Source: Candidatus Thorarchaeota archaeon (GTDB lineage: Archaea > Asgardarchaeota > Thorarchaeia > Thorarchaeales > Thorarchaeaceae). From it: a stretch of 64,000 nt of DNA. The translations under genes were made by a program, and so were the position numbers. Below the pieces are notes generated by a model that did no database searches, was not told where the DNA came from, and was given only the letters and a program-made list of their open reading frames with translations. Where the stretch lies: positions 24,129 to 88,128 of the forward strand of contig PRDH01000019.1 in the NCBI GenBank assembly GCA_003345545.1, given 5' to 3'. Positions 1,211 to 32,213 of the stretch are shown here, piece after piece (the stretch's first letter is position 1; each line of letters starts with the position of its first letter).

Positions 1211-2377
1211 TCATTTGAGATTCGTATATCGGGCTCCGCTCCCAGTATTGAGAAGAATGACATCTTCGTCAAAATCAATCGTACCTGCATCGATGAGATT
1301 CCTCAGGCCTGCAATCCCGACTGCACTCTCAGGACAGATATCCAATCCCTCCAACCTCGCAACCATGCGTCGGATTGGTTCGATGTCATGTTCCGCTACT
1401 GCTACAGCTCCGCCGCCTGAGTTTCTTATGGCGTTGAGAATCTGCCTTCCAGCGAAAGGACTGGGCACACGAAGACCGAGTGCCATGGTCTTTCCGTTCA
1501 CCCAGGGCTCCAGATTGTCTGTTCCCTTCTCTATCGCTCGCACAACGGGAGCACATCCACCACTCTGGGCAGCATATATTCTTGGACGTTCACTTCCTAC
1601 AAGGCCCAGAGTTTCAAGCTCCTCAAATGCTTTCCAAATGCCGATGATTGCTGTTCCACCACCAGTAGGACAGACTATTGCATCGGGGACCGACCAACCC
1701 ATCTGCTCAGAGATTTCAAAACCAAGAGTCTTTTTTCCTTCTACTCTGTAGGGCTCCTTTGTTGTTGAAAGGTCTGTCCAATCACCGTTTCTTTTCCTCA
1801 TTTCTTGTCCTGCGTCTGATATTGTACCGCGCACTCGAACTGTTTCGGCACCGAACAGCTCGCACTGTGTAAAGAAAGGTTCAGGAGTATCATCCGGCAT
1901 GAAGATGTGCGCTGACACTCCAGCAGCCGCGCTATATGCGCTCGCAGACACAGCGGCATTGCCAGCTGAAGGCAGGGCGAAGCTCTTCGCTCCGAGTTCA
2001 AGGCTCTTGGATATAGCTGCGCTGAGTCCCCTATCCTTGAAACTCCCTGTTGGATTTTGGGCTTCATCCTTGATTCTCAGCATCCTGAGACCCAAGTGCT
2101 TTCCCAGCTGTCTTGATAGCAGAAGTGGTGTCCATCCTTCACCAAGACTAATGACGTAAGATGGGGACTTCACAGGCAGAAGTTGTGAATATCTCCACAT
2201 CGAGTTAAGGTCTGAAGGGAACTCTCCGGAATCAATCTCCTCTTGGACGCTGCCCGTGTCATATACTGCAAACAGGGGTGATCCACAGACGCAATATGTG
2301 CTGAGGTGGTCAGCAGAGTGCTCTCTTCTGCATTGCGGACATTTAAGGTGCGATATATGAGAGATCAATGAGTTCAC
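1211..2377 (-). CDS. thrC: Threonine synthase (PLP fold type II)
   Basis: N-terminal CPQC..CVCG, SLGEGWTPL, NPTGSFKDRG (PLP Lys), SAGNAA, EGKKT, PTGGGT. Confidence 0.88.
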   Translation of the reverse strand: MNSLISHISHLKCPQCRREHSADHLSTYCVCGSPLFAVYDTGSVQEEIDSGEFPSDLNSMWRYSQLLPVKSPSYVISLGEGWTPLLLSRQLGKHLGLRMLRIKDEAQNPTGSFKDRGLSAAISKSLELGAKSFALPSAGNAAVSASAYSAAAGVSAHIFMPDDTPEPFFTQCELFGAETVRVRGTISDAGQEMRKRNGDWTDLSTTKEPYRVEGKKTLGFEISEQMGWSVPDAIVCPTGGGTAIIGIWKAFEELETLGLVGSERPRIYAAQSGGCAPVVRAIEKGTDNLEPWVNGKTMALGLRVPSPFAGRQILNAIRNSGGGAVAVAEHDIEPIRRMVARLEGLDICPESAVGIAGLRNLIDAGTIDFDEDVILLNTGSGARYTNLK

Positions 2378-3699: not shown

Positions 3700-3740
3700 G
3701 AAATCCAGAGGGGAATCCCATCAAGGGCACAATATGTGCG

Positions 3741-10413: not shown

Positions 10414-10592
10414 ACTGTCGACCACCGAATGTGGCCGAAGTTCACGCCCTAAAGAGGTTTGCCCCTTAGAGGGAAACAAGTGATTGGGCAGCCTGTATCC
10501 AGTTCGTCCGAATCTGTTCCGTGTACGATGAAGGAATAACCTAAAATGATGGTCTTGCAGAGTTATTCTGCCACTACAGGTCTGTGCTTTGA

Positions 10593-11297: not shown

Positions 11298-11307
11298 CGT
11301 TTCTGTA

Positions 11308-11949
11308 CTAGAGAGATAGATTCAGATTGAGTCCTCTCTGAAGAAGTTCGAGAGCAACGTCAATCTCAGATTGGAAAACAGATACGTCATCTACTTGGAG
11401 TACTAGCTCTTGGTCACTCGACTCTTCCAAGAACAGAATGACTGGATCAAGACCAGCCACAGGACCTGCGCTAATCAGTGGTGCCGTGATTCCGTCATAG
11501 AAATCAGCTCGCCCGAGAGGAACATCCATTCTCTTCAACAACCGGTCCCCCTTGGAAGAGAGCACCTGTCCGCATGTAGGTCCATCATGAGTCATCACGG
11601 ACACGACAAACCGTGTGGGAACATTGCCTCTAAGATAGAAGAGCATGTCCGTCATCCAATCGTATTCCTTGAAAACAACATCTCCAAAAACAATCATCAA
11701 GTCATCGGCTACCATTCCATGGACTGGTACGACCGGGGCTTTGACATCCACGGGGTATCGATTCCAGGGCGAGAACGCTGGGGAATTGAAAATTAACAAG
11801 GTATCAAAGCCATTCTTTTCGTACAGCTGCCTGCACAATGCTTGCCCCATCGGATTGAGACCCAAGATGACCGAGTACGTTTCAGTTATCTTCTGCTTCT
11901 TGTACACCTCAAGGACTGGTGAAATCCATTCCTGTTCGAATATTGGCAT
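11308..11949 (-). CDS. Hypothetical protein, possible proteasome assembly chaperone (PAC2-like) fold
   Basis: N-terminal VILGLNPMGQ and C-terminal DGITAPLISAG..AGLDPVILF resemble PAC-family motifs; weak. Confidence 0.45.
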   Translation of the reverse strand: MPIFEQEWISPVLEVYKKQKITETYSVILGLNPMGQALCRQLYEKNGFDTLLIFNSPAFSPWNRYPVDVKAPVVPVHGMVADDLMIVFGDVVFKEYDWMTDMLFYLRGNVPTRFVVSVMTHDGPTCGQVLSSKGDRLLKRMDVPLGRADFYDGITAPLISAGPVAGLDPVILFLEESSDQELVLQVDDVSVFQSEIDVALELLQRGLNLNLSL

Positions 11950-12118
11950 AGCAGTTGCTCCGATCTCCTGAATAGTGAGCTCTTTAATGACTGTTCGTGT
12001 TACGAACTCATTACAGTCATAGCATCGCTATTGGTTCATTAGAGGATTATCAATCGATTCATTTATACGGGCACCTCGTTTGAGGCGTTCTCGTCTAACA
12101 TTACCGGTGAGTGCGAGT

Positions 12119-13465
12119 ATGAACAAATACATAGAGACTGTCTACAACAAGCTTGTCGAAAAAGACCCCGATCAAAAGGTCTTTCATCAGGCTGCATTGG
12201 AAGTACTCGAATCCTTGGAGCCTGCTATCAAGAAGTATCCCAAGTACCAAGAATTCTCGATTCTTGAGAGGATTACTGAACCAGAACGTTCTGTTCAGTT
12301 CCGCGTGCCTTGGAAGGATGACAAAGGCAAGATTCAGGTGAACCGAGGGTATAGAATACAATTCAACTCGGCGATTGGACCTTACAAGGGTGGTCTTCGA
12401 CTTCATCCTACTGTCAATCTGGGAGTTCTCAAGTTCCTAGGATTTGAGCAGGTATTCAAGAATAGCCTGACAACGCTGCCAATGGGTGGTGCCAAGGGAG
12501 GTTCCGATTTTGACCCAAAGGGTAAGTCGGATGCTGAAGTAGAGAGATTCTGCGAGAGTTTCATGTTCGAGCTCTACAGGCATATTGGTCAATTCATCGA
12601 TATCCCTGCTGGAGACATCGGTGTTGGTGGACGCGAAATTGGCTATTTCTATGGAGCCTACAGAAAAATCACTAACAATCATGGTACAGGCGTACTGACG
12701 GGCAAAGGCGGCGGATGGGGTGGCTCGCTGATTCGGCCTGAAGCTACAGGTTACGGTGTCGTCTATTTTGTCGAAGAGATGCTCAAGACCAAGAAACATG
12801 ATATAAAGGGAAAAACAGTATGTATCTCTGGCTCCGGCAATGTAGCTCAATATGCAGCCGAGAAGTGTATCCAGCTTGGTGCCAAGGTCGTCACATTAAG
12901 TGACTCAAATGGATGGATCCATGATCCTACCGGCATTACAAAGGAAAAGCTTGCTTGGGTCATGGACCTTAAGAACAATCGCAGGGGGAGGATTGAGGAA
13001 TACGGTGAGCAATTCAAAGTAGACTACTCAACGCAGGGTAGTCCCTGGAGTGTCAAGTGTGATATTGCCCTCCCATGTGCAACCCAAAACGAGGTCGATG
13101 GAAAAGAAGCAAAGACGCTTGTTGATAATGGCACAACTGCTGTTTGTGAGGGTGCAAACATGCCCACGGTGCCGGAGGGGGTCGAGATATTCATTGAGAA
13201 CAAGATTCTTTATGGCCCCGGCAAAGCCGCGAATGCGGGAGGAGTTTCTGTGTCTGGCCTTGAAATGGCACAGAATAGTCAGCGCATCTTTTGGAATCGT
13301 GAAGAGGTGGATGCTAAGCTGCAAGAGATCATGAAGAGTATTCACGCTAACGCATACAAGACCTCAGAGCTCTTTGGGGCAAAGGGCAATTATGTCATTG
13401 GTGCAAACATTGCCGGATTCCTGAAAGTGGCTGATGCGATGATCGATCAAGGTCAATACGCTTGA
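12119..13465 (+). CDS. gdhA: NADP-specific glutamate dehydrogenase
   Basis: GPYKGGLR, MGGAKGGSDFDPKGKS, PAGDIGVG, RPEATGYG, SGSGNVA, PGKAANAGGV; TTTATA at 12062 and GGTGA SD at 12106 before ATG 12119. Confidence 0.96.
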   Translation: MNKYIETVYNKLVEKDPDQKVFHQAALEVLESLEPAIKKYPKYQEFSILERITEPERSVQFRVPWKDDKGKIQVNRGYRIQFNSAIGPYKGGLRLHPTVNLGVLKFLGFEQVFKNSLTTLPMGGAKGGSDFDPKGKSDAEVERFCESFMFELYRHIGQFIDIPAGDIGVGGREIGYFYGAYRKITNNHGTGVLTGKGGGWGGSLIRPEATGYGVVYFVEEMLKTKKHDIKGKTVCISGSGNVAQYAAEKCIQLGAKVVTLSDSNGWIHDPTGITKEKLAWVMDLKNNRRGRIEEYGEQFKVDYSTQGSPWSVKCDIALPCATQNEVDGKEAKTLVDNGTTAVCEGANMPTVPEGVEIFIENKILYGPGKAANAGGVSVSGLEMAQNSQRIFWNREEVDAKLQEIMKSIHANAYKTSELFGAKGNYVIGANIAGFLKVADAMIDQGQYA

Positions 13466-13478
13466 GCAATCAATCCAC

Positions 13479-13520
13479 GCAGGACTTCCTCAGAGTCCTG
13501 CACTTTCCTTTTTCTTGTTT
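13479..13520 (+). terminator. Hairpin plus T-rich tract after gdhA
   Basis: GCAGGACT-tcctcag-AGTCCTGC (8-bp stem) followed by actttcctttttcttgttt, between convergent genes. Confidence 0.65.
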
Positions 13521-13533
13521 CAGGCTCAGAGAA

Positions 13534-14139
13534 TCAACTTCGTATGATTTCGAGTAGCTCCGCCAATCTACGTTTTATGTCAGATTCCACAGTGCGCAAC
13601 TCCGCTAGCTGCCGAATCTGGTCAATCCTTCTCTTTCTGTATTCTGCTTCTGAGACCTTTCCACTTCTTCTCTCACGTTCTATTCTATCAGATTCTGCAT
13701 TTATCTCGTTTCTTCTGGCTTCGGTCAACTCAAAACCTTGTTTCAGGCTCATCCATTCAATCATCGCATGGCTCCTTTCTTCTTCCATTCTCTCCCGGCG
13801 CTGTCTTTCAATCTCCATCTGTTTGAGTTGGTTGTTTGCTGCTCTGATCTCCTTTTGAATCTCGTAGAGTCGAGCTTCAACTTCTCTCTTCACCTGAATC
13901 ATCTGAGTAGACATCGCCCACTTCTCGCGGTACTGCACGATGTGTTCTGATTCCGTAATTCTCCCGGCCTTGAGTTTCATGTCCAATTCGTTCAGTTCCC
14001 TCTGAACATCGCTGAGTTGTTGCTGCAGCTCGTCGTAGGACTTCTTGAGGGAAACCCATTCGACACTGTACTGGCTCAAAACCTCTCTCGGATCCATGAA
14101 AACAGAATCTTCAGGTGACGCGCCTTCACGATGGCTCAT
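13534..14139 (-). CDS. Coiled-coil protein with an internal two-fold repeat (CdvA-like helical motifs)
   Basis: EWVSLKKSYDEL...LKAGRITESEH versus EWMSLKQGFEL...RRSGKVSEAEY. Confidence 0.7.
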   Translation of the reverse strand: MSHREGASPEDSVFMDPREVLSQYSVEWVSLKKSYDELQQQLSDVQRELNELDMKLKAGRITESEHIVQYREKWAMSTQMIQVKREVEARLYEIQKEIRAANNQLKQMEIERQRRERMEEERSHAMIEWMSLKQGFELTEARRNEINAESDRIERERRSGKVSEAEYRKRRIDQIRQLAELRTVESDIKRRLAELLEIIRS

Positions 14140-22200: not shown

Positions 22201-24891
22201 ATGACAGCTAATCCTCAAGATTGTCCATACCTTGGCAGTATTCGGGAGATGGCAAATGTGAGCAGGAAGAGCAGAAAAGATGTACAAGCGCAGAGTACTG
22301 TTGAAGCCATAAGAATGGCCTCTGCTTCAGTGTTGAGCACGACGACTGGCTTAGGCTATCCAGTTGGAAGTGCAAGAGGCGCTGGAAGCATGCTTGAACA
22401 GCATTCCGAAACAGTGTCCATGAGTATTGCACCTCTAATCTTCAACGTGCGTGATACCTTGAACTCGTCTGAAGGGTTGGAACTGCTCTCTATTGAGTGG
22501 AATCTCGAGAGAACTCCCGGCCCCGGAGTCTTGCCGGAACAGCTCATTGTTGTAGGCGGTTCTGAAGGTGGCGTCGGTTCTCACGTCTGTGTCCTGTGCT
22601 GGGAAAGGGGTGTCGTAGACCCGTTCAGGATAGATCAGTATGTGAAGGTCATCGCCAAGAAACTTGGCGATATAGAGGCCGCTGTCATCAACAATGATCT
22701 CAACTACGACCTCGATGGCCTATCCGTTATCCGACGTTTTGCTGACCGCCTAAACAGCGTCTTGTTCGTAGACATGCTTGACAGGCGTTTTCAGGGTACA
22801 TGGGATTCACTTCAAGTCAAAGATGAACAGATGGCTGTCGAAGCCATCGCGAAAATGTCAACGTATGATGATTTTACGCTTGTTCCTCCAGGCCTAAAGA
22901 TCGCTCGGCGCAATAGCCTTGAATTCAGGCTGCCGTCGTCGTCTAAGGAAGATTTCTTGGATCAGTTTCAACATCGAGTATTGACTCCCAGCGCAATAGA
23001 GATGCTGACAAAGACAGTCCCTGAAACAGGACAAGCAATACTTAACGAGTTGAATACCTATGCATATGCGAGGGAGGAGGCTGATGTTGCCGAGGGGACA
23101 ATCTCAGTTCTGAAAGAATACCTCAAGAGAGACACCGTGAAGCTGTCAGACCTCCAGTCCATTAAGAAAGCAACAGGTGAGTTTGTCGGTCATCTCAATG
23201 ATACCGTCGACTCGCTTGAGTCAATTGTTGATCAACACTCGAACTCTGGGAAGGCTTTGACTATTGCAGGACATAGAGACGCTCTTCTTTCAGATATTGA
23301 TGCAAACCACGAACGATTCGATGGTATCAATGGCACACTTGCTCACATGCTAATTGTTCAAATCATGAAGTCTATTGGGCGCGAATCATTTGGAGTGGAG
23401 GATATTCGTGCATGGCAACTACGAAGCGCTCTAAGCTATGCCATTGCATATGCAAAGAGAGTTGCACAGTACTTTGCTGAGGAACTCGATCACTACCTGA
23501 TTGCTTCTGCCGCAAGAAAGGCATTCTTTGTCGCGCTCCGTGATTTTCGTCAAGAAACCGTACAGGTTGGAATGGATTCAACTGACCTGATGCTTTTCGA
23601 GAAGTTCTATGCTGAGGTTCAATCTCAGCTCAATGCATCCTTCTCGAGAAAATCGTACCAAGGTGTGCAGTATCATGATTTCATTCAGCTAATGGACACG
23701 ATTACGCGGGAAATAATCGAAACCTTCAGGCATATCGATGTATGGAATCTAATCAATTTCTCCGACGTTGCGGATATTGCTCGTTCTGAGATACAAAAGA
23801 GACATGCAGGCCAGTCAAGTGACGGAGCTCTAATGTCGGATGGCAATGCGCTCATGAGCCTACTGAACGCGTTTCAGAACACTGTTTCTGATATTATCCC
23901 TGATGTGGCCGACACTATTCTATCAAAATCTCTTATTCGAAAGATGATTGAGAAGATTAGGTCTGATGGCACAGGTCTGGGTAATGAATTGGCATCTGCG
24001 ATTGAAAGTGTCGGCGAGAAGTCCCAGGAGTGGAAAAGAGAGGCTGTGGCCTGGGTAGAAGGCTTTCGAGATAGTGTAGACCCCACACAATCCACCCCCG
24101 TGAGTCTGCTTGCGCTGTTGCAGTATATCCATGAGCTATTGGACCAAGTGGTATCACCAAGTGCAATGGCTGATCGAGTAAAGGCAGAGGCTGACGCGAA
24201 AGAAGCTGTCTACCAAGCCAAAGTCAATGATTGGCAATTCGCCTGTAAAGAAATCGAAAAGGAGAATGTGTCAATTCGACAACGAAACAACAGACGTGAG
24301 GAGCTCATTGCAGAAGCCACAAGGCAGTTTGAAATGGAGATGTCTGCATTTGAGCAGCAAGTCCGTGATTATCAAGAAAAGGTTGAGCAGAGAGAGTCTC
24401 TGGCAGCAAGTGCAGCTGGAGCGCAGGTTACATTACCAGCATTACCTCTGGAACCAGTTCGTCCTTCTCCTCTAGGGCCGCGAGTTGACAAAATAAGAGG
24501 AAACAATCCAACTGAGCTTGAGAAATCCTTCCCGCCTGAACCGCAACCTGAACCAACACTTCGTTACTACACTGAGTTGCGAGACCTTCTATACGATAAG
24601 CTGAGTGAGATGAAAGAACGTGAAAAGAGCATGGAAGAGACATTTGCTCGGAGAGTCTTACGGCTTCAGGCAGAAGGCATGGGCGCCATTGGAGAGATTG
24701 ACATCAATATCGGTGATGATTTTCTGCAGCATCTGATGGACTCGCGAATTCGTACTCTGGGCAGGCTACTTCCTCGTATCTCTCGCGTTTTCTTGAGGAA
24801 TCCGAAGATACCAGGCCTCCTCTATCTTGTATCATATGCGTACTATAAAGAGGGTTTGACTATGTCGATTGGGAGCACGTTTCTGAGGTGA
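22201..24891 (+). CDS. Large hypothetical helical/coiled-coil protein (possible longin-like N-terminus); true start may be 22315
   Basis: 896-aa ORF with long helical region, coiled coil and Pro-rich segment. Confidence 0.75.
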   Translation: MTANPQDCPYLGSIREMANVSRKSRKDVQAQSTVEAIRMASASVLSTTTGLGYPVGSARGAGSMLEQHSETVSMSIAPLIFNVRDTLNSSEGLELLSIEWNLERTPGPGVLPEQLIVVGGSEGGVGSHVCVLCWERGVVDPFRIDQYVKVIAKKLGDIEAAVINNDLNYDLDGLSVIRRFADRLNSVLFVDMLDRRFQGTWDSLQVKDEQMAVEAIAKMSTYDDFTLVPPGLKIARRNSLEFRLPSSSKEDFLDQFQHRVLTPSAIEMLTKTVPETGQAILNELNTYAYAREEADVAEGTISVLKEYLKRDTVKLSDLQSIKKATGEFVGHLNDTVDSLESIVDQHSNSGKALTIAGHRDALLSDIDANHERFDGINGTLAHMLIVQIMKSIGRESFGVEDIRAWQLRSALSYAIAYAKRVAQYFAEELDHYLIASAARKAFFVALRDFRQETVQVGMDSTDLMLFEKFYAEVQSQLNASFSRKSYQGVQYHDFIQLMDTITREIIETFRHIDVWNLINFSDVADIARSEIQKRHAGQSSDGALMSDGNALMSLLNAFQNTVSDIIPDVADTILSKSLIRKMIEKIRSDGTGLGNELASAIESVGEKSQEWKREAVAWVEGFRDSVDPTQSTPVSLLALLQYIHELLDQVVSPSAMADRVKAEADAKEAVYQAKVNDWQFACKEIEKENVSIRQRNNRREELIAEATRQFEMEMSAFEQQVRDYQEKVEQRESLAASAAGAQVTLPALPLEPVRPSPLGPRVDKIRGNNPTELEKSFPPEPQPEPTLRYYTELRDLLYDKLSEMKEREKSMEETFARRVLRLQAEGMGAIGEIDINIGDDFLQHLMDSRIRTLGRLLPRISRVFLRNPKIPGLLYLVSYAYYKEGLTMSIGSTFLR

Positions 24892-24892
24892 T

Positions 24893-27340
24893 TTGATGGC
24901 AAGTTCTTGGGTACTTAAGACACGACAGGCAAGCGAGGCTGGCAAAGAGATCCTGCTGCGGGAGGCTCTTGTTGCTCATATGCGAAGTACGAGAGACAGG
25001 CAGCTCTTCACTGGGATATTGACTGAAACTCGGCCGCTAAAGGACGTCTTTTCGTTTTTTGCATCTTTCTATCTGCACAGCTATCAGGGAATAAGATTGC
25101 TAGAGGCCGCAGAATCTCCTGAACTTACTGCTGATGGTAAAGATGACCTTGGTCAAGAGGAACGCCATCAATTGGAGCTAGAAGTGCGTAAGCTCTTTGG
25201 CGATAAGCAACGTGAGGAGATTCACACAACGCGTATCATGAGTGAACTCGCGATACGTTTCTGTGATGAATTGGGAGGCAAGCTGTCTTCCTCCCCAGAT
25301 CTGCGCGAGAAGGTGCTCTCTCTCCTAAATGAGTATCTTCAGAGAATTCCATCAGAGTACTCTCCTAATCACGACATTGACTTCGTTGTTGAAGTCACTG
25401 GCTGGGGTACACAATGGCGTGATGAGCTCTACACGAAGGCGTCAGGATTGAAAGAGAGTGCGCTCTCGTTGAGAGAGGAGTTATTGAGAGACCATCCTTC
25501 AGAAGTGCCTGAAACAACCGTCCTAAGAATGGGTCTTGAACGCATCCATGGTCGAGCTGAGTTTGCAAGGGGTCGGCTATCTGATGCTATTATTCCTTCT
25601 CGCAATTGGGATGGTATTGCAGATGCCATCATTGGACGTTTCTGCAGGGATGCGGACGAAGTCAAGTGTCTGAAGCAAGCACATGAAATCCGACTCGCCC
25701 TGCTGAAGGCAGTTGAAGAGAAGTACGATACGCCTACTACGATCGAGGACTATGAGCAAAGGCTAGGATCTGTTGTCGCCGGTCCAATCGCTGACATCCT
25801 GTCCTCTGATTCATCTCTGGTACTAGGCATATTATCCAGTCTTCTTGCTATTGATTCAGATGAACTGAAGGCGCAGCTTCGTCGGAAGGGTATTGACGAT
25901 TTGTCCATCATTGGAGAAGGCCTAAGAGCGCTCGCAGATGTTGTTGAAGACGCCCCATCAGGTCCACAGATCAGCAAGCAAGAGATGGAGCTCCTTGAGC
26001 GTTCTCTGAAGACTCTAGAGAAGCTTGAGCACACTCTCGAACATCCGGTGAAAGGACTGTTGAAGGCTCGGGGCCTTCGAGCCTCAGAACTTGACAAGAT
26101 TTCCGTGGATCTCCTTGTTAAGGATCGGAAAAGCTTGGTGGGGATTGAAGTTGAGGTTCTTGATGAGTTGGCTAAGAAGATGCGAGTTCCGCCTCCGGAA
26201 GAGGTCAAGAGGCTTGTTGAAATACGGGGCCAAGTAAAAAGTGGCGCCTTAAGTACGCTGGGCATATCTTCAGCCCGTGATTTTAGCAGACAACGCGTCG
26301 AGGAAGAAACAGTCAGGTCAATCAAACTTGACATAATCTGGCACCTCACGACTAGCATTCTAACAAACCTCACTAGGATAGTTGAGTCCTATATTCGGTC
26401 GAAGCAAGACCTGCTTCGTGTCAAGGCACTATTGAAGAGTATATACGAAGACACAGACCCAAGTCTGCAGTTTCTAAGAGAAGAGATTCTGGTTGATTTG
26501 GCTGCCATGCGTATCCATGAGTTTAAGGTAGTACACCCTGAACTTGATACAGCAAATATCTGCACATGGATGCATGCACGTCTCTCGAGTAAGGATATGA
26601 CGGCTGCACGAAAGGATCTTGATGCTACTCCGAGTCCTGCTTTCGAGGGTATTATCGACAAGCCGCTTGAGATGAGTGGTCTAGAGTATGATAACTATGC
26701 TATTGCCTTTGATATAATGCAGCGTTTCTTGAAACAGGAGCGCCTCGAAAAGCTTGCCAAAGATGAGTACGCGTTTGAAACCAAGCAAAAAGAGCAAATC
26801 CTCCTCGAGTCAAAACGGGAGTCTCTCGATGTTCTGACGTACTTGCATAACAAGGCTCAGACCGTGTTTCGTGCCATAGGCCGTGTAGGAACCAAGGGTC
26901 TGGAATGGTCTCAGAGCGATACCTCAAAGTGTTCTAACCTACTGGCATACTACATCAAAACTGGTCGTGGAAGGCTCATCTGTTCTGCATGTGGCACTGT
27001 TTCAAAGGAGAAGAAATGCCCACAACATGGCACATCCTTCATCAAGGAAGCAAATGACATGGATAATCTAGCGATATTCATGATGAGAGCGAACTATGAA
27101 ATTAAAGATGGTCTTGTTGGGAGGAGTGCTGAACAGATGCCTTGGGACAAGGCAAAATCGAGCATCGAGCGCGAAATAGGCATCCTGAAGCGAAAGGGCA
27201 AATTGACCTCAAAGGCCAATCTAAAGGAACTTCTCCCTGGAGAGATCAACTATGTGATTGGTCCTGTTATTTGCGAAATCATTGGCAAGTACTTCAACGA
27301 GTCACTAGTCTATGCAGCTCGTAGAGCCGAAGTGGCTTAA
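24893..27340 (+). CDS. Large hypothetical helical protein with CxxC...CxxH zinc knuckle
   Basis: 815-aa ORF 1 nt after the upstream stop; CSACG...KCPQHG. Confidence 0.75.
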   Translation: MMASSWVLKTRQASEAGKEILLREALVAHMRSTRDRQLFTGILTETRPLKDVFSFFASFYLHSYQGIRLLEAAESPELTADGKDDLGQEERHQLELEVRKLFGDKQREEIHTTRIMSELAIRFCDELGGKLSSSPDLREKVLSLLNEYLQRIPSEYSPNHDIDFVVEVTGWGTQWRDELYTKASGLKESALSLREELLRDHPSEVPETTVLRMGLERIHGRAEFARGRLSDAIIPSRNWDGIADAIIGRFCRDADEVKCLKQAHEIRLALLKAVEEKYDTPTTIEDYEQRLGSVVAGPIADILSSDSSLVLGILSSLLAIDSDELKAQLRRKGIDDLSIIGEGLRALADVVEDAPSGPQISKQEMELLERSLKTLEKLEHTLEHPVKGLLKARGLRASELDKISVDLLVKDRKSLVGIEVEVLDELAKKMRVPPPEEVKRLVEIRGQVKSGALSTLGISSARDFSRQRVEEETVRSIKLDIIWHLTTSILTNLTRIVESYIRSKQDLLRVKALLKSIYEDTDPSLQFLREEILVDLAAMRIHEFKVVHPELDTANICTWMHARLSSKDMTAARKDLDATPSPAFEGIIDKPLEMSGLEYDNYAIAFDIMQRFLKQERLEKLAKDEYAFETKQKEQILLESKRESLDVLTYLHNKAQTVFRAIGRVGTKGLEWSQSDTSKCSNLLAYYIKTGRGRLICSACGTVSKEKKCPQHGTSFIKEANDMDNLAIFMMRANYEIKDGLVGRSAEQMPWDKAKSSIEREIGILKRKGKLTSKANLKELLPGEINYVIGPVICEIIGKYFNESLVYAARRAEVA

Positions 27341-27446: not shown

Positions 27447-28844
27447 ATGAGTAGATTCGTCCCAAAAGGAGTCATGCCGGCCCTCGTAACACCATTCACC
27501 AGAGATGGCGACATCAACGAAGAAGGCTTCAGACAGGTTATCGACTACACTATCAGTAAAGGTGCAACTGGAGTCGTACCAGCTGGAACGACCGGGGAAT
27601 TCTCGTATATGCGTACTGAGGAGCGTAAGAAACTACTGAAGCTCACTGTGGAGTATGTTGACGGTCGCGTTCCCATTATTGCTGGCACCGGCCAAAACAG
27701 CACCAGAGCGACTGTACTCTTGACCAAGTACGCTGCAGACATCGGATGCGATGCAGCCCTCGTGATTTCACCCTACTATCTCCGGCCTGGTGACAAGGGA
27801 TACTATGAGCACTATGCAACAGTGGCACGTCAAGCTGACCTGCCAGTGATTCTGTACAATCTCCCCCAATGCACTCTCGGAGTTCTCAATTCCAATGTAG
27901 TAGAAGATCTCTCTGAGATAGACAATGTTGTTGGCATAAAGGATAGCAGCGGTAATATGCCATATCTTCTAGAATTGCTCGAGAAAGTGCACGGCAGGAT
28001 AGAAGTCATAATCGGAGCTGACGAGTGCTTCCTTTCTGCAGTAGCTGCTGGAGTGAAGGCGGCGATTCTTGCTACAGCAAATCTCATTCCCCATATTTGG
28101 CTTGAAATCATGCACAAGGTCCAGAAGGGAAAGATCGAAGAGGCTGCGAAGCTGCAGAACTCTGTGCAGACATTAGCACGTCTTATACTGAAGAACGGTG
28201 CTGCGCCTCCTATTAAGGCAGGTCTACGCATGCTGGGCATCAATGCAGGCAAGAGTAGGATGCCACTTGATACTGGAGGCACGCTCACTCCTGAAACCAA
28301 AGAAGAAATCCGGCTTGAGCTCCAGAAACTTGGAGTCCTAGAAGAACTCAAGCATCCTTCAATCCAGCGAAGCATCCAGATATTTGAGGCATTGCTGCAG
28401 CAAGGTTTCACTATAGATGAGACGTCGAATGTCAAACAGAGCTCCGGTTCGAATAATACTGTTTCTGTGGCCATCGCCACAGGAAGCAAGAATAGCCCTC
28501 TGGGCGGAACCTTCGTCAAGCTTCTCACAATGCCAAAAATAGGTCACGAAGCCCTCATGGTTATTCTGGAGCCCAACCTGGCTGTCCGTCCCAGTAGCAT
28601 CATGTTTCCAATGAGGAGAATCGAATCGATGCGACAGGCATCCCTATTCTATGGTCCAGTTCAGTCTGGAGCTGCGCGAGCTATTGCTTCCTATCTTGAG
28701 AAAGGCAAGATTCCAAATCAGTCAATAGAAGATGATGTGATGGTCATGGCATTGGACGTTGATTTGAATTCGAAGGACCGCCGACAAGTCGTTGCAGCGA
28801 CACAAGAGGCTGTTGAAAAGGCCCTAGCTGGCATATGGAGGTAG
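27447..28844 (+). CDS. DHDPS/NAL-family aldolase fused to C-terminal Fae-like domain (paralog 1)
   Basis: ALVTPF, GTTGEF, ILYNLP, GIKDS; C-terminal GSKNSPLG...GHEALMVILEPNLAVRP...FYGPVQSGAARA..GKIP. Confidence 0.88.
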   Translation: MSRFVPKGVMPALVTPFTRDGDINEEGFRQVIDYTISKGATGVVPAGTTGEFSYMRTEERKKLLKLTVEYVDGRVPIIAGTGQNSTRATVLLTKYAADIGCDAALVISPYYLRPGDKGYYEHYATVARQADLPVILYNLPQCTLGVLNSNVVEDLSEIDNVVGIKDSSGNMPYLLELLEKVHGRIEVIIGADECFLSAVAAGVKAAILATANLIPHIWLEIMHKVQKGKIEEAAKLQNSVQTLARLILKNGAAPPIKAGLRMLGINAGKSRMPLDTGGTLTPETKEEIRLELQKLGVLEELKHPSIQRSIQIFEALLQQGFTIDETSNVKQSSGSNNTVSVAIATGSKNSPLGGTFVKLLTMPKIGHEALMVILEPNLAVRPSSIMFPMRRIESMRQASLFYGPVQSGAARAIASYLEKGKIPNQSIEDDVMVMALDVDLNSKDRRQVVAATQEAVEKALAGIWR

Positions 28845-28849
28845 GCATC

Positions 28850-30328
28850 ATGTACAGTGGTAGCTATCGTTTTCAAGGCGTCTATCCAGCGTTAGTCACA
28901 CCGTTTGACGAGAACGGTGTAAATGAAAAGCAGTACAGAAACCTCATTGAGTATACGATCAAGGCCGGCGCCACGGGTATTGTTCCCTGCGGGACAACCG
29001 GAGAATTCACCAGCATGAGGTTTGATGAAAAAGTTGAAGCCATCAGAATTGCCTGTGAAGTGGCAAAGGACCGTGTTCCCGTTCTTGCAGGGACTGGGGC
29101 TGCCTACACAGGCGATGCAATCAAGCTGACACGACGAGCTTCCGAGCTAGGAGCTTCAGGAGCTCTGGTGGTTTCTCCATACTTCTTGAGACCTTCAGAC
29201 AAGGAGATATTCGAGCATTTTGAGAAGATTGCGAATAACAGCGACATTCCCATCTTCATTTATAATATCCCTCAGGTAACTGGTGTTCCCATCCATTGGA
29301 CGCTTGTCGATGGTCTGCGGGAGATTGATGGAATTGCAGGACTGAAGGATTCAAGTGGTGACCTGATTAATCTGACGACAATCCTTGTTCGCAAACCCGA
29401 GAGCTTCCAAGTAGTTGTCGGTCACGATGAGGTAGCACTTCCTGCTCTCGCATCAGGTTGTGATGGGGCTATACTCGCAAGTGCCAACGTTTTTCCCGAT
29501 AGGTACATCAAGATGCAGACTGCCTTGGCGAGTGGCTATCTCAAGGAAGCCATGATTATCCAGCGAAGCATCCAGAAGACAGTCCGCATCTTTGTGAACA
29601 GTGGTGGAGGAATGGCAATAAAGGCGGCCCTGAATATGATGGGTATCCCTGTCGGAAAGGCGAGGCCCCCTCTCCAGATTGGTGATTCTCTCAGCTATGC
29701 TGACCTTGATGAACTGAGGGCTTGCCTTGAGGATCTGCAAATGATTCCAAGAGGGCCAGTCACATTCAAGATGAGGGGCAACTCAGTAGTTGCAGAGAAC
29801 TACCCCAAGGCAGTGGGGCAAGTACCCGACACTGTGGCAGACTTGACTCTCCTTCATGGAGAGTCGTTATTCGGTTCAAATACTGAAGTGGCTCATGTCG
29901 ACCTTCTCCTTGGAATAAGAGATGGCCCAATAAAGGAGGCTCTTGCCAATGCAGGAAAGATTGCTGATGACCGGCATCCGTCCAATGTGATAAAGGATCT
30001 TGAGCTCACAACTGTATTTGCTCCGACAGTGACCATCACATCTGAGAAGCACAAGAAGCTGGTCTACGATGTCGCCCAGAAGGCGGTCAAAGATGCAGTC
30101 AAGCGTACCATTACAGATATGATTATCCCAGAAGAGCTAATCCCTGACCTTGTGATTGCTGTGAATGTCTTTGTTCACCCGAGCGCAGCGAATCCAAGGC
30201 GAGTGCACATCAATAATTTCATTGCTGTTCGCCATGCCATCCGACGTGCAATTGAAGGTCGTCAGAGTGTTGATGAGATAATCGCGCGTAAGGATTCTGC
30301 CAGGCATCCATTTGCCTATAACCCATAA
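28850..30328 (+). CDS. DHDPS/NAL-family aldolase fused to C-terminal Fae domain (paralog 2)
   Basis: GTTGEF, IYNIP, GLKDS; C-terminal GESLFG.NTEVAHVDLLLG.RDGP...PTVTI...AQKAV...VFVHPSA...NNF.AVRHAIRRA...ARHPF; GGAGGT SD (28837-28842) favours ATG 28850. Confidence 0.9.
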   Translation: MYSGSYRFQGVYPALVTPFDENGVNEKQYRNLIEYTIKAGATGIVPCGTTGEFTSMRFDEKVEAIRIACEVAKDRVPVLAGTGAAYTGDAIKLTRRASELGASGALVVSPYFLRPSDKEIFEHFEKIANNSDIPIFIYNIPQVTGVPIHWTLVDGLREIDGIAGLKDSSGDLINLTTILVRKPESFQVVVGHDEVALPALASGCDGAILASANVFPDRYIKMQTALASGYLKEAMIIQRSIQKTVRIFVNSGGGMAIKAALNMMGIPVGKARPPLQIGDSLSYADLDELRACLEDLQMIPRGPVTFKMRGNSVVAENYPKAVGQVPDTVADLTLLHGESLFGSNTEVAHVDLLLGIRDGPIKEALANAGKIADDRHPSNVIKDLELTTVFAPTVTITSEKHKKLVYDVAQKAVKDAVKRTITDMIIPEELIPDLVIAVNVFVHPSAANPRRVHINNFIAVRHAIRRAIEGRQSVDEIIARKDSARHPFAYNP

Positions 30329-30440
30329 GCCTGCTCTCAGTGTAATGTGAGGTGGTCATACGCTTGACCGTAGCATCAGTCTCTGCCAAAACATCATTGG
30401 CCATTTGTTAAGTCCACAAAAACTGGCATTACACTAATCA

Positions 30441-30467
30441 GAACTTCTAGGTACATCCTAGGAGTTC
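30441..30467. promoter_or_regulatory. Intergenic inverted repeat
   Basis: GAACTTCTAGG-tacat-CCTAGGAGTTC, 11-bp stem with one G:U pair. Confidence 0.4.
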
Positions 30468-30634
30468 CAAGAAGAGTGCGCCTTCAGAATAGCCCCTACC
30501 CCCTGTTTGGGCGCATTCCACGGTGCATTTCTGTCTGGTTCCTCTATATATACTTCAGTGTACATGTGTTGTACAAGTCTTGCATCCCTCTTAGACTGCC
30601 GCGTCATCACCACATCCGTCGGAGTAAAACAGGA

Positions 30635-30820
30635 ATGGCTGAGAACTACATCATTCGCATTGGCGATATTCCTTCTCGGAAAATCCGCAAGAGTGTTCGC
30701 GGATTCTTGGAGGATGAAGATGTCGCTGTTGTGGTCAATGATGGACAGATATTCGACGTAGTGCTCGAAAAGAATCGGCTTGTCATGAAGTCTGACGAAC
30801 TCTGGTCAGTTCAGAAATAG
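30635..30820 (+). CDS. Small hypothetical protein (61 aa)
   Basis: MAENYIIRIGDIPSRKIRKSVRGFLEDEDVAVVV...; GGAG upstream; protein-like amphipathic pattern. Confidence 0.55.
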   Translation: MAENYIIRIGDIPSRKIRKSVRGFLEDEDVAVVVNDGQIFDVVLEKNRLVMKSDELWSVQK

Positions 30821-31085
30821 TCGCGATTTGCTCTCGAATCTCTCCCCTAAATATCTGTCCAGTCGTTGAAGTGTGGATCTCAGCCCAATTCCTACCTCAT
30901 TCTTTCAAAGAAAAAGTGGCAAATCTCAGCCTGCTCTTGGCTCGTCATCGCTAATGCTCAGACAGGGGTAACTGCCTCATCGATTGCCATCTCTACTAGC
31001 AACATCTAGCCTTATGAAAGTGTTCAAAGCTGAATCAGAATCTTCTTAGCGATAAAGCTACTCAGCCCATCTCGGTGTTGAATCC

Positions 31086-32213
31086 GTGCTAGAGTCTAGA
31101 GTGCTCTCACTTCTGAGGGATTTGGTGGCAACGAGCTCAGAAAATCCTCCTGGCCGTGAAGACAAAGTCGCCAAGGTGCTTCGCGAGCATATGGAATCGC
31201 ATGGAATCGGCTGTGTGTCAGTTGGTCCAAGCAGGCGCCCAAATCTGATATTCTCAAGTCATGATGGTCGCCACGCCGACTTGGTCATGCATGGTCATAT
31301 GGATACTGTGCCTGTTGGCAGGCCAGAGAGTTGGTCTCACGATCCCTTCGGGTCGGAGATTGTTGATGGGGCGTTCTATGGAAGAGGAGCCTGTGATATG
31401 AAAGGTCCACTCGCGGCACTCGCAGAGACCCTTATCATCTATGCTGAGGAACATCATCATCAGCCTCTTCTTGTGCTCAACACGTCAGATGAGGAGAGAG
31501 TCTTTTCAGGCGCAGAAAATGTGGTCAAGAGTGGGGAACTTGCTGGGGTACGATACGGAGTCTGTGCAGAACCCACCAATTTGCAGGTCCTTGCTGGGGA
31601 GAAGGGCCTATTCTGGTCAAGGATTGTGGCGACTGGAAAATCCGCCCATGGTTCGCGTCCGGAGCTGGGAGTGAATGCAATCAGCGCCTGCATTGACGCA
31701 ATTGATGTTCTACTTTCTGATGAATACCCATATGAAAAAGACCGACTGCTAGGCAAACCCACAGTAAACGTTGGATTAATCCGAGGCGGTATCATGGTCA
31801 ATGTTGTTCCAGATAGCTGCGAAGCGCAGCTGGATTTTCGGACTGCCAAAGGGCAGAGTCCCGAATCTCTCATGAAGTTGATGAACGAACGGCTGAACTC
31901 AGCAGGCCTATCTAATCGAGTAAAAGTTGAGTATATGCATGGAAAGCCAGCGGTCTTGACACCCCATGATTCAGTCATAGTCCAAGTCGCAGTTGAGGAA
32001 GTAGAGAGAGCGACCGGAGTTCATTCCGCACTGGGAGCTGCAACATATGGCACAGACTGCTCCGTCCTGCAGACGAAGGCTGGAATCCTCAATGTCATCT
32101 GTGGCCCCGGGATGATAGAGCATGCTCACCAGCCTGATGAGCATATCAGTCTGAATCAGTTGTACAAGGCTGTTGACGTCTTTCTAGGAATAGCTCGGAG
32201 ATTCGATCAATGA
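31086..32213 (+). CDS. M20 family metallopeptidase / ArgE-DapE-like deacylase
   Basis: HGHMDTVP, GRGACDMKG, SDEE, AEPT, GKSAHGS.PE.G.NA, AHQPDE. Confidence 0.92.
   Translation: MLESRVLSLLRDLVATSSENPPGREDKVAKVLREHMESHGIGCVSVGPSRRPNLIFSSHDGRHADLVMHGHMDTVPVGRPESWSHDPFGSEIVDGAFYGRGACDMKGPLAALAETLIIYAEEHHHQPLLVLNTSDEERVFSGAENVVKSGELAGVRYGVCAEPTNLQVLAGEKGLFWSRIVATGKSAHGSRPELGVNAISACIDAIDVLLSDEYPYEKDRLLGKPTVNVGLIRGGIMVNVVPDSCEAQLDFRTAKGQSPESLMKLMNERLNSAGLSNRVKVEYMHGKPAVLTPHDSVIVQVAVEEVERATGVHSALGAATYGTDCSVLQTKAGILNVICGPGMIEHAHQPDEHISLNQLYKAVDVFLGIARRFDQ

What the first reader, a model, noticed from the sequence alone, without database searches (positions are those of the whole stretch)
27447..30328. 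Tandem aldolase-Fae fusions with complementary Fae halves: candidate formaldehyde-channelling enzyme
Seen: both adjacent genes encode a DHDPS/NAL TIM barrel with intact GTTGE, catalytic Tyr (YN) and Schiff-base Lys (KDS). Neither has the DHDPS Arg that binds aspartate semialdehyde (YNLPQCT and YNIPQVT instead of YNxPxRT). Each is fused to a Fae-like domain. Paralog 2 keeps the GE...EVAHVDL catalytic-His motif and the C-terminal HPF but lacks the central GHxxLLAVxxPNLxxKP segment. Paralog 1 keeps that segment (GHEALMVILEPNLAVRP) and FYGPVQ but lacks the catalytic His motif. Known: Fae condenses formaldehyde with H4MPT at inter-subunit sites, and the Fae-Hps fusion of methanogens couples a formaldehyde-releasing aldolase to it. 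Inference: a heteromeric pyruvate-dependent aldolase, for example 4-hydroxy-2-oxobutanoate to pyruvate + formaldehyde, with a composite Fae site feeding or drawing on H4MPT C1 metabolism. This would be an unusual amino-acid/C1 junction.
Basis: partly seen in the sequence, partly recalled or inferred. Interest (0 to 1): 0.85.

Follow-up and report, generated by a model that had tools for sequence, protein, structure and literature searches.

The report
Paired aldolase-Fae fusion enzyme genes
Two coupled genes of this Thorarchaeota genome, labelled in databases as the lysine enzyme DapA, each fuse a pyruvate-type aldolase to a formaldehyde-activating (Fae) domain that keeps only the motifs the other has lost, so they probably form one unstudied two-subunit enzyme linking a 2-oxoacid to one-carbon metabolism.

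Summary
Subunit A (27447-28844) and subunit B (most likely 28850-30328) each carry a DHDPS/NAL barrel plus a Fae-like domain. Both barrels keep GTTGE, the catalytic Tyr and the Schiff-base Lys. The DapA arginine is Cys in A and Val in B, and the genome lacks dapB and asd, so these are not DapA.

New here:
- The fusion arose once. About half of 400 Asgard genomes have it.
- Lokiarchaeia and others carry a single gene with a complete Fae motif set.
- Thorarchaeota, two other Asgard families, Korarchaeota, another archaeon and more than 40 Chloroflexota species carry an A+B pair.
- In every pair, A has lost the His and the C-terminal arm, and B has lost the central loop. This pattern fits a composite site between subunits.

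The link to H4MPT is weak. This genome has Mch and FolD but no Ftr, Mtd or RFAP synthase, and the Chloroflexota holders lack Mch. The carrier may be folate.

The reaction pyruvate + formaldehyde = 4-hydroxy-2-oxobutanoate is plausible but untested. The homoserine-supply idea gets only partial support.

The scan has flagged this same pair at least eight times in other Thorarchaeota genomes. I found no paper on it.

The parts
27447..28844 (+). Subunit A (class A DHDPS-Fae fusion, 465 aa)
   Evidence: ORF. PF00701 covers aa 7-288 and PF08714 covers aa 337-461. It falls in the class A clade of the Fae-domain tree.
27465..28310 (+). A: DHDPS/NAL-type TIM barrel. GTTGE at aa 47-51, Y137, K165 (nt 27939-27941), and Cys142 (nt 27870-27872) where DapA has Arg138
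28455..28829 (+). A: Fae-like domain. It keeps the central segment GHEALMVILEPNLAVRP (from nt 28542) and YGPVQ (Q406). Ser340 replaces the catalytic His. The VFVHP motif and the C-terminal arm are missing
28837..28852 (+). Gene junction: GGAGG (28837-28841) inside the end of A, stop TAG of A at 28842-28844, ATG of B at 28850
   Evidence: Sequence read. Homologues of B are 491-492 aa long.
28850..30328 (+). Subunit B (class B DHDPS-Fae fusion, 492 aa from ATG 28850; an upstream ATG at 28835 is less likely)
   Evidence: AF2 model with alignment: pLDDT 93.2, pTM 0.90.
28871..29677 (+). B: DHDPS/NAL-type TIM barrel. GTTGE at aa 48-52, Y138, K166 (nt 29345-29347), Val143 (nt 29276-29278) where DapA has Arg138, and Phe112 at the second Tyr of the PYY motif
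   Evidence: The closest solved folds are DHDPS (TMt 0.94-0.96).
29858..30313 (+). B: Fae-like domain. It keeps GE..EVAH349VDL, NVFVHP and the C-terminal arm ARH486PF. The central segment is shortened by 6 residues and diverged
   Evidence: The last ~20 residues have low model confidence.

Best explanation
The two genes encode the two subunits of one heteromeric enzyme from an uncharacterised family in which a DHDPS/NAL-type class I (Schiff-base lysine) 2-oxoacid aldolase barrel is fused to a Fae-type domain. The enzyme is not DapA.

Shown here:
- The fusion arose once.
- Some lineages have a single gene with a complete Fae motif set.
- Other lineages have a translationally coupled A+B pair. 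A has lost the catalytic His, the VFVHP motif and the C-terminal arm. B has lost the central loop and, outside Thorarchaeota, the Gln of GPAQ.

Inferred:
- In Fae the coenzyme site lies in the cleft between neighbouring subunits. One face of the site would therefore come from B and the other from A. That gives one working Fae-type site per A/B interface and makes the pair obligate partners.
- By analogy with Fae-Hps, where a formaldehyde-handling aldolase carries its own Fae domain, the barrel most likely joins pyruvate to formaldehyde, or splits 4-hydroxy-2-oxobutanoate into them. The Fae-type site would pass the one-carbon unit to or from a tetrahydropterin carrier.
- The carrier would be H4MPT by homology. 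In this genome, and in the Chloroflexota that hold the pair, tetrahydrofolate is at least as likely.
For: Domain content. Catalytic residues and missing Arg.

Not in the lysine pathway: no DapB_N, no Asd/ArgC C-domain.

Coupling: SD-like GGAGG and ATG right after the stop of A. The same A-then-B order with 1-4 nt overlaps occurs in L008, L013 and L024, and adjacent A-then-B genes occur in L007, L012, G005, G299 and Chloroflexota loci.

Complementary losses in all 11 pairs aligned (8, 4 more Chloroflexota pairs), against complete motifs in the Loki and f4 single genes and in canonical Fae-Hps.

One origin: the fusions form one clade against DHDPS-only proteins (SH-aLRT 100) and against canonical Fae (100). 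Class A has support 100 and class B 98 in the Fae-domain tree.

The Fae site is under selection in its own right. In the archaeal MAG GCA_003560875 both barrels have lost the Schiff-base Lys (ADS, LDA) and GTTGE, yet both complementary Fae motif sets are kept.

Each aldolase has its own Fae domain. Most Loki genomes have a canonical Fae-Hps as well as the DHDPS-Fae gene.

The model of B is confident as one rigid two-domain body (pTM 0.90) with a floppy C-terminal arm.

Contigs at 99% identity or more from a wetland RNA library lie inside both genes.
Against: No activity has been measured for any member. No complex model could be run, and I could not map the motifs onto the Fae pentamer (PDB 1Y60). 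That the two motif sets sit on opposite faces of the cleft is therefore an inference.

H4MPT markers are poor in this genome: Ftr, Mtd and RFAP synthase were not found, and Mer-like hits are below cut-off. The genome is 93% complete.

RFAP synthase is present in only 1 of 40 good Thorarchaeota genomes. Ftr is absent from three Thorarchaeota genera that keep the pair.

Chloroflexota holders have no Mch (0 of 5) and no RFAP synthase above cut-off. Fae is not known to use folate.

Gene neighbourhoods differ between lineages and name no substrate.

The second Tyr of the DHDPS PYY motif (E. coli Tyr107 of the proton relay; numbering from my own knowledge of the enzyme) is Phe in B, and it varies across the family.

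The RNA evidence rests on a few short contigs, and DNA carry-over cannot be excluded.
Confidence: 0.45

Rival explanations
1. The Fae-like domains no longer catalyse anything. They serve as an assembly or ligand-sensing (for example pterin-sensing) module on an ordinary pyruvate aldolase. That aldolase would act on another aldehyde, such as glyceraldehyde, glycolaldehyde or glyoxylate, in sugar-acid or amino-acid breakdown.
For: Both Fae domains score below the NCBIfam Fae cut-off (86.7 and 114.8 against 118.05). Each lacks canonical motifs. H4MPT markers are scarce in this genome and absent in the Chloroflexota holders. Some relatives sit beside peptide or sugar transporters, another DHDPS-family gene, an aminotransferase and acyl-CoA enzymes. 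The G(H/W/Y)DE motif resembles the sugar-binding GYDE of N-acetylneuraminate lyase (the NAL motif is from my own knowledge).
Against: The losses are complementary in every pair, and single-gene forms keep every Fae motif, including the acid-catalyst His. That is not expected of a decayed domain. In GCA_003560875 the aldolase residues are lost in both subunits while the Fae motif sets are kept, so there the Fae part cannot merely be serving the aldolase.
Confidence: 0.25
2. The selected activity is Fae alone: formaldehyde capture or detoxification on a pterin carrier. In Thorarchaeota, which lack Fae-Hps, the barrels would act mainly as a scaffold.
For: The only Fae domains in this genome are these two. 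In the Thorarchaeota family, 78 of 85 genomes have Fae hits, nearly always exactly two, at E around 1e-30 and never at the roughly 1e-70 typical of the canonical type. One archaeal lineage keeps the pair with aldolase-dead barrels.
Against: In this window, and in almost all members, both barrels keep GTTGE, Tyr and Lys. This argues for purifying selection on the aldolase chemistry. Loki genomes keep the fusion alongside a canonical Fae-Hps, so it is not simply a replacement Fae.
Confidence: 0.12
3. They are what the databases say: 4-hydroxy-tetrahydrodipicolinate synthase (DapA) paralogues for lysine synthesis, with an accessory domain.
For: TIGR00674 dapA scores 222.3 and 229.7 bits, above its 206.15 cut-off. 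The closest solved sequences and folds are DHDPS. Public records name them DapA.
Against: The Arg that binds aspartate semialdehyde is Cys or Val here, and it is never Arg at that column in the family. DapB and Asd were not found in the genome, so neither the substrate nor the next step is available.
Confidence: 0.03

Closest known systems
Bifunctional Fae-Hps of methanogens and many Asgard archaea (5,6,7,8-tetrahydromethanopterin hydro-lyase / 3-hexulose-6-phosphate synthase; NCBIfam NF009833)
   Same: A Fae-type domain is fused in one chain to an aldolase-type TIM barrel that makes or uses formaldehyde. Canonical copies occur in most non-Thor Asgard genomes.
   Different: The barrel here is a DHDPS/NAL class I lysine aldolase, not the OMP-decarboxylase-like Hps. 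The domain order is reversed, with Fae at the C-terminus. NF009833 scores 74.9 and 91.7 against a cut-off of 274. The Fae motifs are divided between two paralogous subunits. The fusion Fae domains form their own clade apart from canonical Fae.
Formaldehyde-activating enzyme Fae of Methylobacterium extorquens (PDB 1Y5Y/1Y60; PF08714)
   Same: Both C-terminal domains match it (E 3.7e-18 and 2.9e-11). B keeps the His-containing N-terminal motif and the C-terminal HPF arm. A keeps the central loop and the GPxQ motif.
   Different: Fae is a stand-alone homopentamer of about 170 residues with every motif in each chain (quaternary structure from my own knowledge of the published structure). Here no single chain has all the motifs, and the domain hangs on a barrel that normally forms dimers or tetramers. 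The use of H4MPT is unproven, and doubtful in folate-type hosts.
DapA / DHDPS (4-hydroxy-tetrahydrodipicolinate synthase, TIGR00674) and the wider DHDPS/NAL family (PF00701)
   Same: Barrel fold (TMt 0.94-0.96, rmsd about 1.6 A), GTTGE, catalytic Tyr, Schiff-base Lys.
   Different: The Arg138 equivalent is missing, no dapB or asd is present, and there is an extra Fae domain. The fusions form a clade separate from the nearest DHDPS-only proteins.
Ketopantoate hydroxymethyltransferase PanB (PF02548)
   Same: It transfers a formaldehyde-level one-carbon unit from a methylene-pterin to the carbon next to a 2-oxo group. This is the kind of net reaction proposed here.
   Different: PanB has an unrelated fold and is metal-dependent (class II). 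A normal PanB is present in this genome (338 bits), so the pair is not its replacement.

Membership tests
DapA (4-hydroxy-tetrahydrodipicolinate synthase, EC 4.3.3.7) | DHDPS/NAL TIM barrel with GTTGE, catalytic Tyr133 and Schiff-base Lys161 | tested here: met
   PF00701 E 1.6e-79 and 8.6e-70. A has Y137 and K165; B has Y138 and K166. Fold TMt 0.94-0.96 to DHDPS.
DapA (4-hydroxy-tetrahydrodipicolinate synthase, EC 4.3.3.7) | Arg138, which binds the carboxylate of aspartate semialdehyde | tested here: not met
   Aligned to the R of 'PGRS' in 1xky/3hij: Cys142 in A, Val143 in B. No Arg at this column in 24 family members.
DapA (4-hydroxy-tetrahydrodipicolinate synthase, EC 4.3.3.7) | Pathway partners in the genome (Asd for the substrate, DapB for the next step) | tested here: not met
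   PF01113 DapB_N: no match. PF02774 Semialdhyde_dhC: no match. Genome 93% complete.
DapA (4-hydroxy-tetrahydrodipicolinate synthase, EC 4.3.3.7) | Score above the curated cut-off of the equivalog model TIGR00674 | tested here: met
   222.3 and 229.7 bits against 206.15. This explains the public annotation but conflicts with the two rows above.
Fae (formaldehyde-activating enzyme, PF08714 / TIGR03126) | Domain match above curated cut-offs | tested here: inconclusive
   Pfam: 94.4 and 101.3 bits against 27, met. NCBIfam TIGR03126: 86.7 and 114.8 bits against 118.05, not met.
Fae (formaldehyde-activating enzyme, PF08714 / TIGR03126) | Acid-catalyst His (His22 of M. extorquens Fae) in the AH(I/V)DL motif | tested here: inconclusive
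   B has His349 in EVAHVDL. A has Ser340 in TVSVAI. The role of His22 is taken from my recollection of the published structure paper, which the library does not hold.
Fae (formaldehyde-activating enzyme, PF08714 / TIGR03126) | All site motifs in every chain (central loop, GPAQ, VFVHP, C-terminal HPF arm) | tested here: not met
   A lacks His, VFVHP and the arm. B lacks the central loop. The full set exists only across A+B.
Fae (formaldehyde-activating enzyme, PF08714 / TIGR03126) | Homopentamer with the coenzyme bound between neighbouring subunits | not testable with these tools
   Only single chains can be modelled here. No coordinates are available for measuring interfaces.
Fae (formaldehyde-activating enzyme, PF08714 / TIGR03126) | Host makes and uses H4MPT | tested here: inconclusive
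   Mch present at 371 bits. Ftr, Mtd and RFAP synthase not found. Mer-like hits below cut-off. FolD present. RFAP synthase in 1 of 40 Thorarchaeota genomes, Ftr in 30 of 39.
Fae-Hps bifunctional enzyme (NF009833) | Hps (3-hexulose-6-phosphate synthase) domain joined to Fae | tested here: not met
   Only the Fae part of the NF009833 profile is matched (positions 15-141 and 4-161 of 392). Scores are 74.9 and 91.7 against 274.
N-acetylneuraminate lyase / KDG aldolase / KdgD / HpaI-type members of PF00701 | Score above the curated cut-off of the specific model | tested here: not met
   All are far below their cut-offs. For example nanA scores 156 and 148 against 382, Arch_KDGaldase 110 and 121 against 390, and TIGR02313 192 and 175 against 396.7.

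The most novel reading that the evidence does not exclude
The DHDPS-Fae enzyme is a natural 'pyruvate hydroxymethyltransferase'. It would make 4-hydroxy-2-oxobutanoate from pyruvate and a methylene-pterin. After transamination, this would supply homoserine, and thus threonine, in archaea that have threonine synthase but neither aspartate-semialdehyde dehydrogenase nor homoserine dehydrogenase. That would be a previously unknown entry into the aspartate-family amino acids, mirroring the synthetic 'homoserine cycle'.

For:
- This genome has ThrC (483.7 bits) but no Hom or Asd.
- Asgard families f1, f4, f13, f14 and f28 have the fusion and almost never Hom. Eleven families without the fusion mostly have Hom.

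Against:
- 34 of 80 fusion-bearing Loki genomes also have Hom, as do 4 of 5 Chloroflexota holders.
- Families f26 and f27 have a ThrC-like gene with neither Hom nor the fusion.
- No homoserine kinase was found here.
Probability: 0.2. Interest if true: 0.85.

Novelty: new variant of a known kind. Interest (0 to 1): 0.6.

Why it matters
Hundreds of Asgard and Chloroflexota genomes carry these genes under the name DapA. That name inflates lysine-pathway calls in metabolic reconstructions of the closest archaeal relatives of eukaryotes.

If the reading is right, this is a second natural example, after Fae-Hps, of an aldolase wired directly to a formaldehyde-activating site. It would be built on a different barrel, and its active site would be divided between two paralogous subunits.

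It would also define a junction between pyruvate and one-carbon metabolism in abundant anaerobic sediment microbes, and it would offer a natural template for engineered formaldehyde assimilation. The single-gene and split forms make a clean natural experiment on how obligate heteromers arise by complementary loss.

Tried and rejected
- **Ketopantoate synthesis (PanB analogue).** Rejected: a normal PanB is present.
- **Canonical DapA.** Rejected: no Arg138 equivalent, no DapB, no Asd.
- **Third DHDPS-family gene (contig C47, L005).** It is KdgD-like and below every cut-off, so it is not a spare DapA.
- **Homoserine kinase.**
  - TIGR00191 gives only weak GHMP hits. One is mevalonate kinase and one is an unassigned kinase.
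  - The TIGR02535 hit is ApgM next to enolase.
- **Class A partner in Loki.** The 427-aa protein upstream of the Loki gene is unrelated to class A. Loki therefore has a single gene.
- **ORF after the G299 pair.** It has no family match and is not Fae-Hps.
- **Gene context.** No neighbour is conserved across lineages. AhcY lies near the pair in four related Anaerolineales loci only.
- **Literature.** Four searches for the fusion or for Fae structural details found nothing usable. The Fae structure paper is not held.
- **First AF2 run.** Run without an alignment, it was useless (pLDDT 37).
- **RNA.** Only short contigs from one metatranscriptome lie on the genes. This shows no operon transcript and no expression level.
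- **Stretch at 30300-31100.** No tRNA or Rfam match.
Full report
**What is there**

The window holds two co-directional ORFs, 27447..28844 (465 aa, here A) and 28835..30328 (497 aa, here B). Both match PF00701 DHDPS (E 1.6e-79 and 8.6e-70) followed by PF08714 Fae (E 9.4e-27 and 7.2e-29).

Homologues of B are 491-492 aa long. The sequence at the junction reads GGAGG (28837-28841), then the TAG stop of A (28842-28844), then ATG at 28850. B therefore most likely starts at 28850, directly behind A, as in a translationally coupled pair.

More than 100 protein clusters at 66-93% identity come from Thorarchaeota/Promethearchaeota MAGs. They are annotated only as 4-hydroxy-tetrahydrodipicolinate synthase.

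**The barrels**

Both barrels keep GTTGE, the catalytic Tyr (A Y137, B Y138) and the Schiff-base Lys in KDSSG (A K165, B K166).

Aligned to Bacillus anthracis DHDPS (1xky/3hij), the Arg of 'PGRS' falls on Cys142 in A and Val143 in B. This is the residue that binds aspartate semialdehyde (Arg138 in E. coli numbering, from established DHDPS enzymology). No member of the family has Arg in this column.

The NCBIfam dapA model still scores above its cut-off (222 and 230 bits against 206), which explains the public name.

The genome is 2.69 Mb in 82 contigs and 93% complete. It has no DapB_N match and no Asd/ArgC C-domain match. Its only other DHDPS-family gene is KdgD-like and below every cut-off. 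So these are class I 2-oxoacid aldolases, but not DapA.

An AlphaFold2 model of B built with a 90-sequence alignment is confident (pLDDT 93.2, pTM 0.90). The 40-residue 'linker' folds as a beta hairpin, and only the last ~20 residues are uncertain. The nearest solved folds are DHDPS (TMt 0.94-0.96). No solved structure covers both domains.

**The Fae domains**

Against Methylobacterium Fae (1y5y), the two domains differ as follows.

| Feature | A | B |
|---|---|---|
| N-terminal His motif | Ser340 in place of the His (VSVAI) | Kept (GE..EVAHVDL, His349) |
| Central segment (GFTSLLAVIAPNLPCKP in Fae) | Kept (GHEALMVILEPNLAVRP) | 6-residue deletion, otherwise unrecognisable |
| GPAQ motif | Kept (FYGPVQ, Q406) | YDVAQ, Gln kept |
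| NVFVHP | Lost | Kept |
| C-terminal arm (HPF) | Chain ends before it | Kept (ARHPF) |

One nuance applies: both chains have a whole Fae fold, and it is the motif set that is divided between them.

**Distribution and history**

An exhaustive profile-free search of 1.84 billion cluster representatives found only about 13 clusters (at 50% identity) with this architecture.

In 400 Asgard genomes, a B-type protein (E below 1e-60) is present in 192:

| Asgard family | Genomes with a B-type protein |
|---|---|
| Thorarchaeota (f1) | 77 of 85 |
| Loki-type (f22) | 80 of 135 |
| f4 | 3 of 3 |
| f13 | 10 of 12 |
| f14 | 14 of 19 |
| f28 | 2 of 3 |
| f30 | 2 of 5 |
| f5 | 1 of 1 |

Thorarchaeota have no canonical Fae. 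Their only Fae hits are these two weak ones. Other Asgard families have a canonical Fae-Hps (E about 1e-70 in frames of about 400 aa).

Loki and f4 genomes carry a single DHDPS-Fae gene. It has every Fae motif: His, central loop, GPAQ, VFVHP and ARHPF. The protein upstream of it in Loki is unrelated to class A.

A+B pairs, always in that order and adjacent or overlapping, occur in:
- Thorarchaeota (L007)
- f5 (G005, and the similar L008)
- f28 (G299)
- Korarchaeota/Thermoproteota (L024)
- an unclassified archaeal MAG (L013)
- more than 40 Chloroflexota species genomes, on contigs up to 1.08 Mb

In every pair, A lacks the His, VFVHP and the arm, and B lacks the central loop. Outside Thorarchaeota, B also lacks the Gln of GPAQ.

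In the trees, all fusions form one clade against the nearest DHDPS-only proteins (support 100) and against canonical Fae (100). In the Fae-domain tree, class A (100) and class B (98) are each one group, and the single genes branch at the base or with B. That tree includes the columns that define the classes, so this grouping could partly reflect parallel loss. The barrel tree puts Korarchaeota B with Korarchaeota A.

**What this means for mechanism**

As I recall the published Fae structure, methylene-H4MPT lies in the cleft between two neighbouring subunits, His22 acts as acid catalyst, and Gln88 and the C-terminal arm move on binding. The paper is not in the library.

A single-gene form with all motifs, set against duplicated forms with reciprocal and recurrent loss, is the signature of a site built from two faces of identical subunits that was then partitioned between paralogues. 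I infer one competent site per A/B interface (His and arm from B, loop and Gln from A), and therefore an obligate heteromer.

The site also seems to matter in its own right. In GCA_003560875 both barrels have lost the Schiff-base Lys (ADS and LDA), GTTGE is degenerate, and B has HN in place of YN. The two complementary Fae motif sets are nevertheless kept.

**Chemistry**

The only precedent for an aldolase fused to Fae is Fae-Hps, where the aldolase releases or consumes formaldehyde.

Loki genomes keep both Fae-Hps and DHDPS-Fae. This fits the idea that each formaldehyde-handling aldolase carries its own Fae site.

For a pyruvate-type class I aldolase, the formaldehyde reaction is pyruvate + HCHO = 4-hydroxy-2-oxobutanoate. 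This is an inference. Nothing in the sequence fixes the acceptor aldehyde.

A PanB-like role is excluded, because a normal PanB is present.

**Which carrier?**

- This genome has Mch (371 bits).
- It has no Ftr, Mtd or RFAP synthase.
- Its Mer-like paralogues are below the cut-off.
- It has FolD (179 bits).
- An earlier unverified note of this scan reports a metV-metF-mtrH-mtrA cluster elsewhere in the genome.
- Among Thorarchaeota genomes at least 90% complete, Ftr is present in 30 of 39. It is absent from the nearest relative G362 and from three genera that keep the pair.
- RFAP synthase is found in only 1 of 40.
- Five Chloroflexota genomes with the pair have no Mch and no RFAP synthase above cut-off.

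Either the site can work with tetrahydrofolate, or these hosts obtain a methanopterin-like carrier in an unknown way, or the site handles formaldehyde without a pterin. I cannot decide between these.

**The homoserine idea**

Earlier follow-ups in this scan proposed that the product feeds homoserine and threonine. I tested this.

Support:
- This genome has a threonine synthase in the same window (1211..2377, minus strand; NF006050 at 483.7 bits against a cut-off of 303).
- It has no homoserine dehydrogenase and no Asd.
- At family level, the fusion and Hom tend to exclude each other. Families f1, f4, f13, f14 and f28 have the fusion and almost no Hom. Families f8, f10, f11, f15-f19, f23 and f29 show the reverse.

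Against:
- Within the Loki family, 34 of 80 fusion-bearing genomes also have Hom, compared with 37 of 55 without the fusion.
- 4 of 5 Chloroflexota holders have Hom.
- Families f26 and f27 keep a ThrC-like gene with neither Hom nor the fusion.
- No homoserine kinase was found here.

I keep this as the most novel reading, at about 0.2.

**Expression**

One wetland metatranscriptome holds short contigs at 99% identity or more inside A (28144-28305) and inside B (29506-29718 and 30110-30322). DNA runs from wetland metagenomes hold the whole stretch. This is a weak sign that both genes are transcribed. It does not show an operon transcript.

**Novelty and verdict**

I found no paper on a DHDPS-Fae fusion. 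The scan has reported the same pair at least eight times in other Thorarchaeota genomes, with similar conclusions.

It is a new variant of known kinds: Fae fusions and DHDPS-family aldolases. It is widespread, mis-annotated and experimentally tractable. The heteromer with a shared site is likely (about 0.7). The formaldehyde-coupled aldolase is plausible (about 0.45). The substrate and the carrier are open.

Noticed in passing
window 1211-2377 (-): A bona fide threonine synthase (NF006050, 483.7 bits against a cut-off of 303) in a genome where homoserine dehydrogenase, Asd and a recognisable homoserine kinase were not found. ThrC-like genes are nearly universal in Asgard genomes, even where Hom is absent.
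   Followed up: partly
window 30630-30700 and beyond: A very abundant contig (word depth 226, 299 nt) from a wetland RNA library starts at 30630, just downstream of the pair. There is no tRNA and no Rfam family in 30300-31100. A small ORF (within 30476-30820, + strand) lies there.
   Followed up: partly
window 22201-24891 and 24893-27340 (+): Two large adjacent proteins (896 and 815 aa) with no Pfam match lie directly upstream of the pair. The same two (867 and 814 aa) precede the pair in the complete Thorarchaeota genome CP070761 (L007).
   Followed up: no
L020:7683-8966, L022:7086-8378, L023:47-1339, L031 (reverse strand, before the fusion gene): In Lokiarchaeia, a conserved 427-430 aa protein with no family match sits 35 nt upstream of the single DHDPS-Fae gene. 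It is unrelated to class A. It could be a different partner.
   Followed up: partly
L013:6544-9449 and L014 (GCA_003560875.1): An archaeal lineage keeps the A+B pair although both barrels have lost the Schiff-base Lys (ADS, LDA), GTTGE and, in B, the catalytic Tyr. The complementary Fae motifs are retained. The pair lies next to a RibD_C (DHFR-like) gene.
   Followed up: partly
Thorarchaeota family genomes (G313-G392): RFAP synthase (TIGR00144), the committed step of methanopterin synthesis, is found in only 1 of 40 genomes at least 90% complete, while Ftr is found in 30 of 39. How these archaea obtain an H4MPT-type carrier is unexplained.
   Followed up: partly
L024:7715-10398 (Korarchaeota/Thermoproteota): In the barrel tree, the Korarchaeota B subunit groups with the Korarchaeota A subunit (support 97). 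In the Fae-domain tree it groups with all other B subunits (98). This points to either an independent duplication with parallel loss, or gene conversion of the barrel.
   Followed up: partly
L037:9211-10476, L045:8087-9346, L046:8170-9429, L050:8189-9448: Adenosylhomocysteinase (AhcY, 670 bits in L037) lies convergently 0.6-1.7 kb downstream of the pair in four Anaerolineales genomes. L045 also has a CysK/CBS-like PLP enzyme nearby. This may simply reflect relatedness.
   Followed up: partly
L008:1-6280 and 9554-13649: In an f5-like relative, the pair is flanked by another DHDPS-family gene, an Opp-type peptide ABC transporter, a split class III aminotransferase, a family III CoA-transferase and an acyl-CoA dehydrogenase. 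This looks like a catabolic neighbourhood and is not seen in Thorarchaeota.
   Followed up: no
window 2494-5174 (+): Two adjacent genes resemble the ATPase and D-type subunits of Mg-chelatase or cobaltochelatase (TIGR02442, 476.8 and 95.4 bits, both below cut-off).
   Followed up: no
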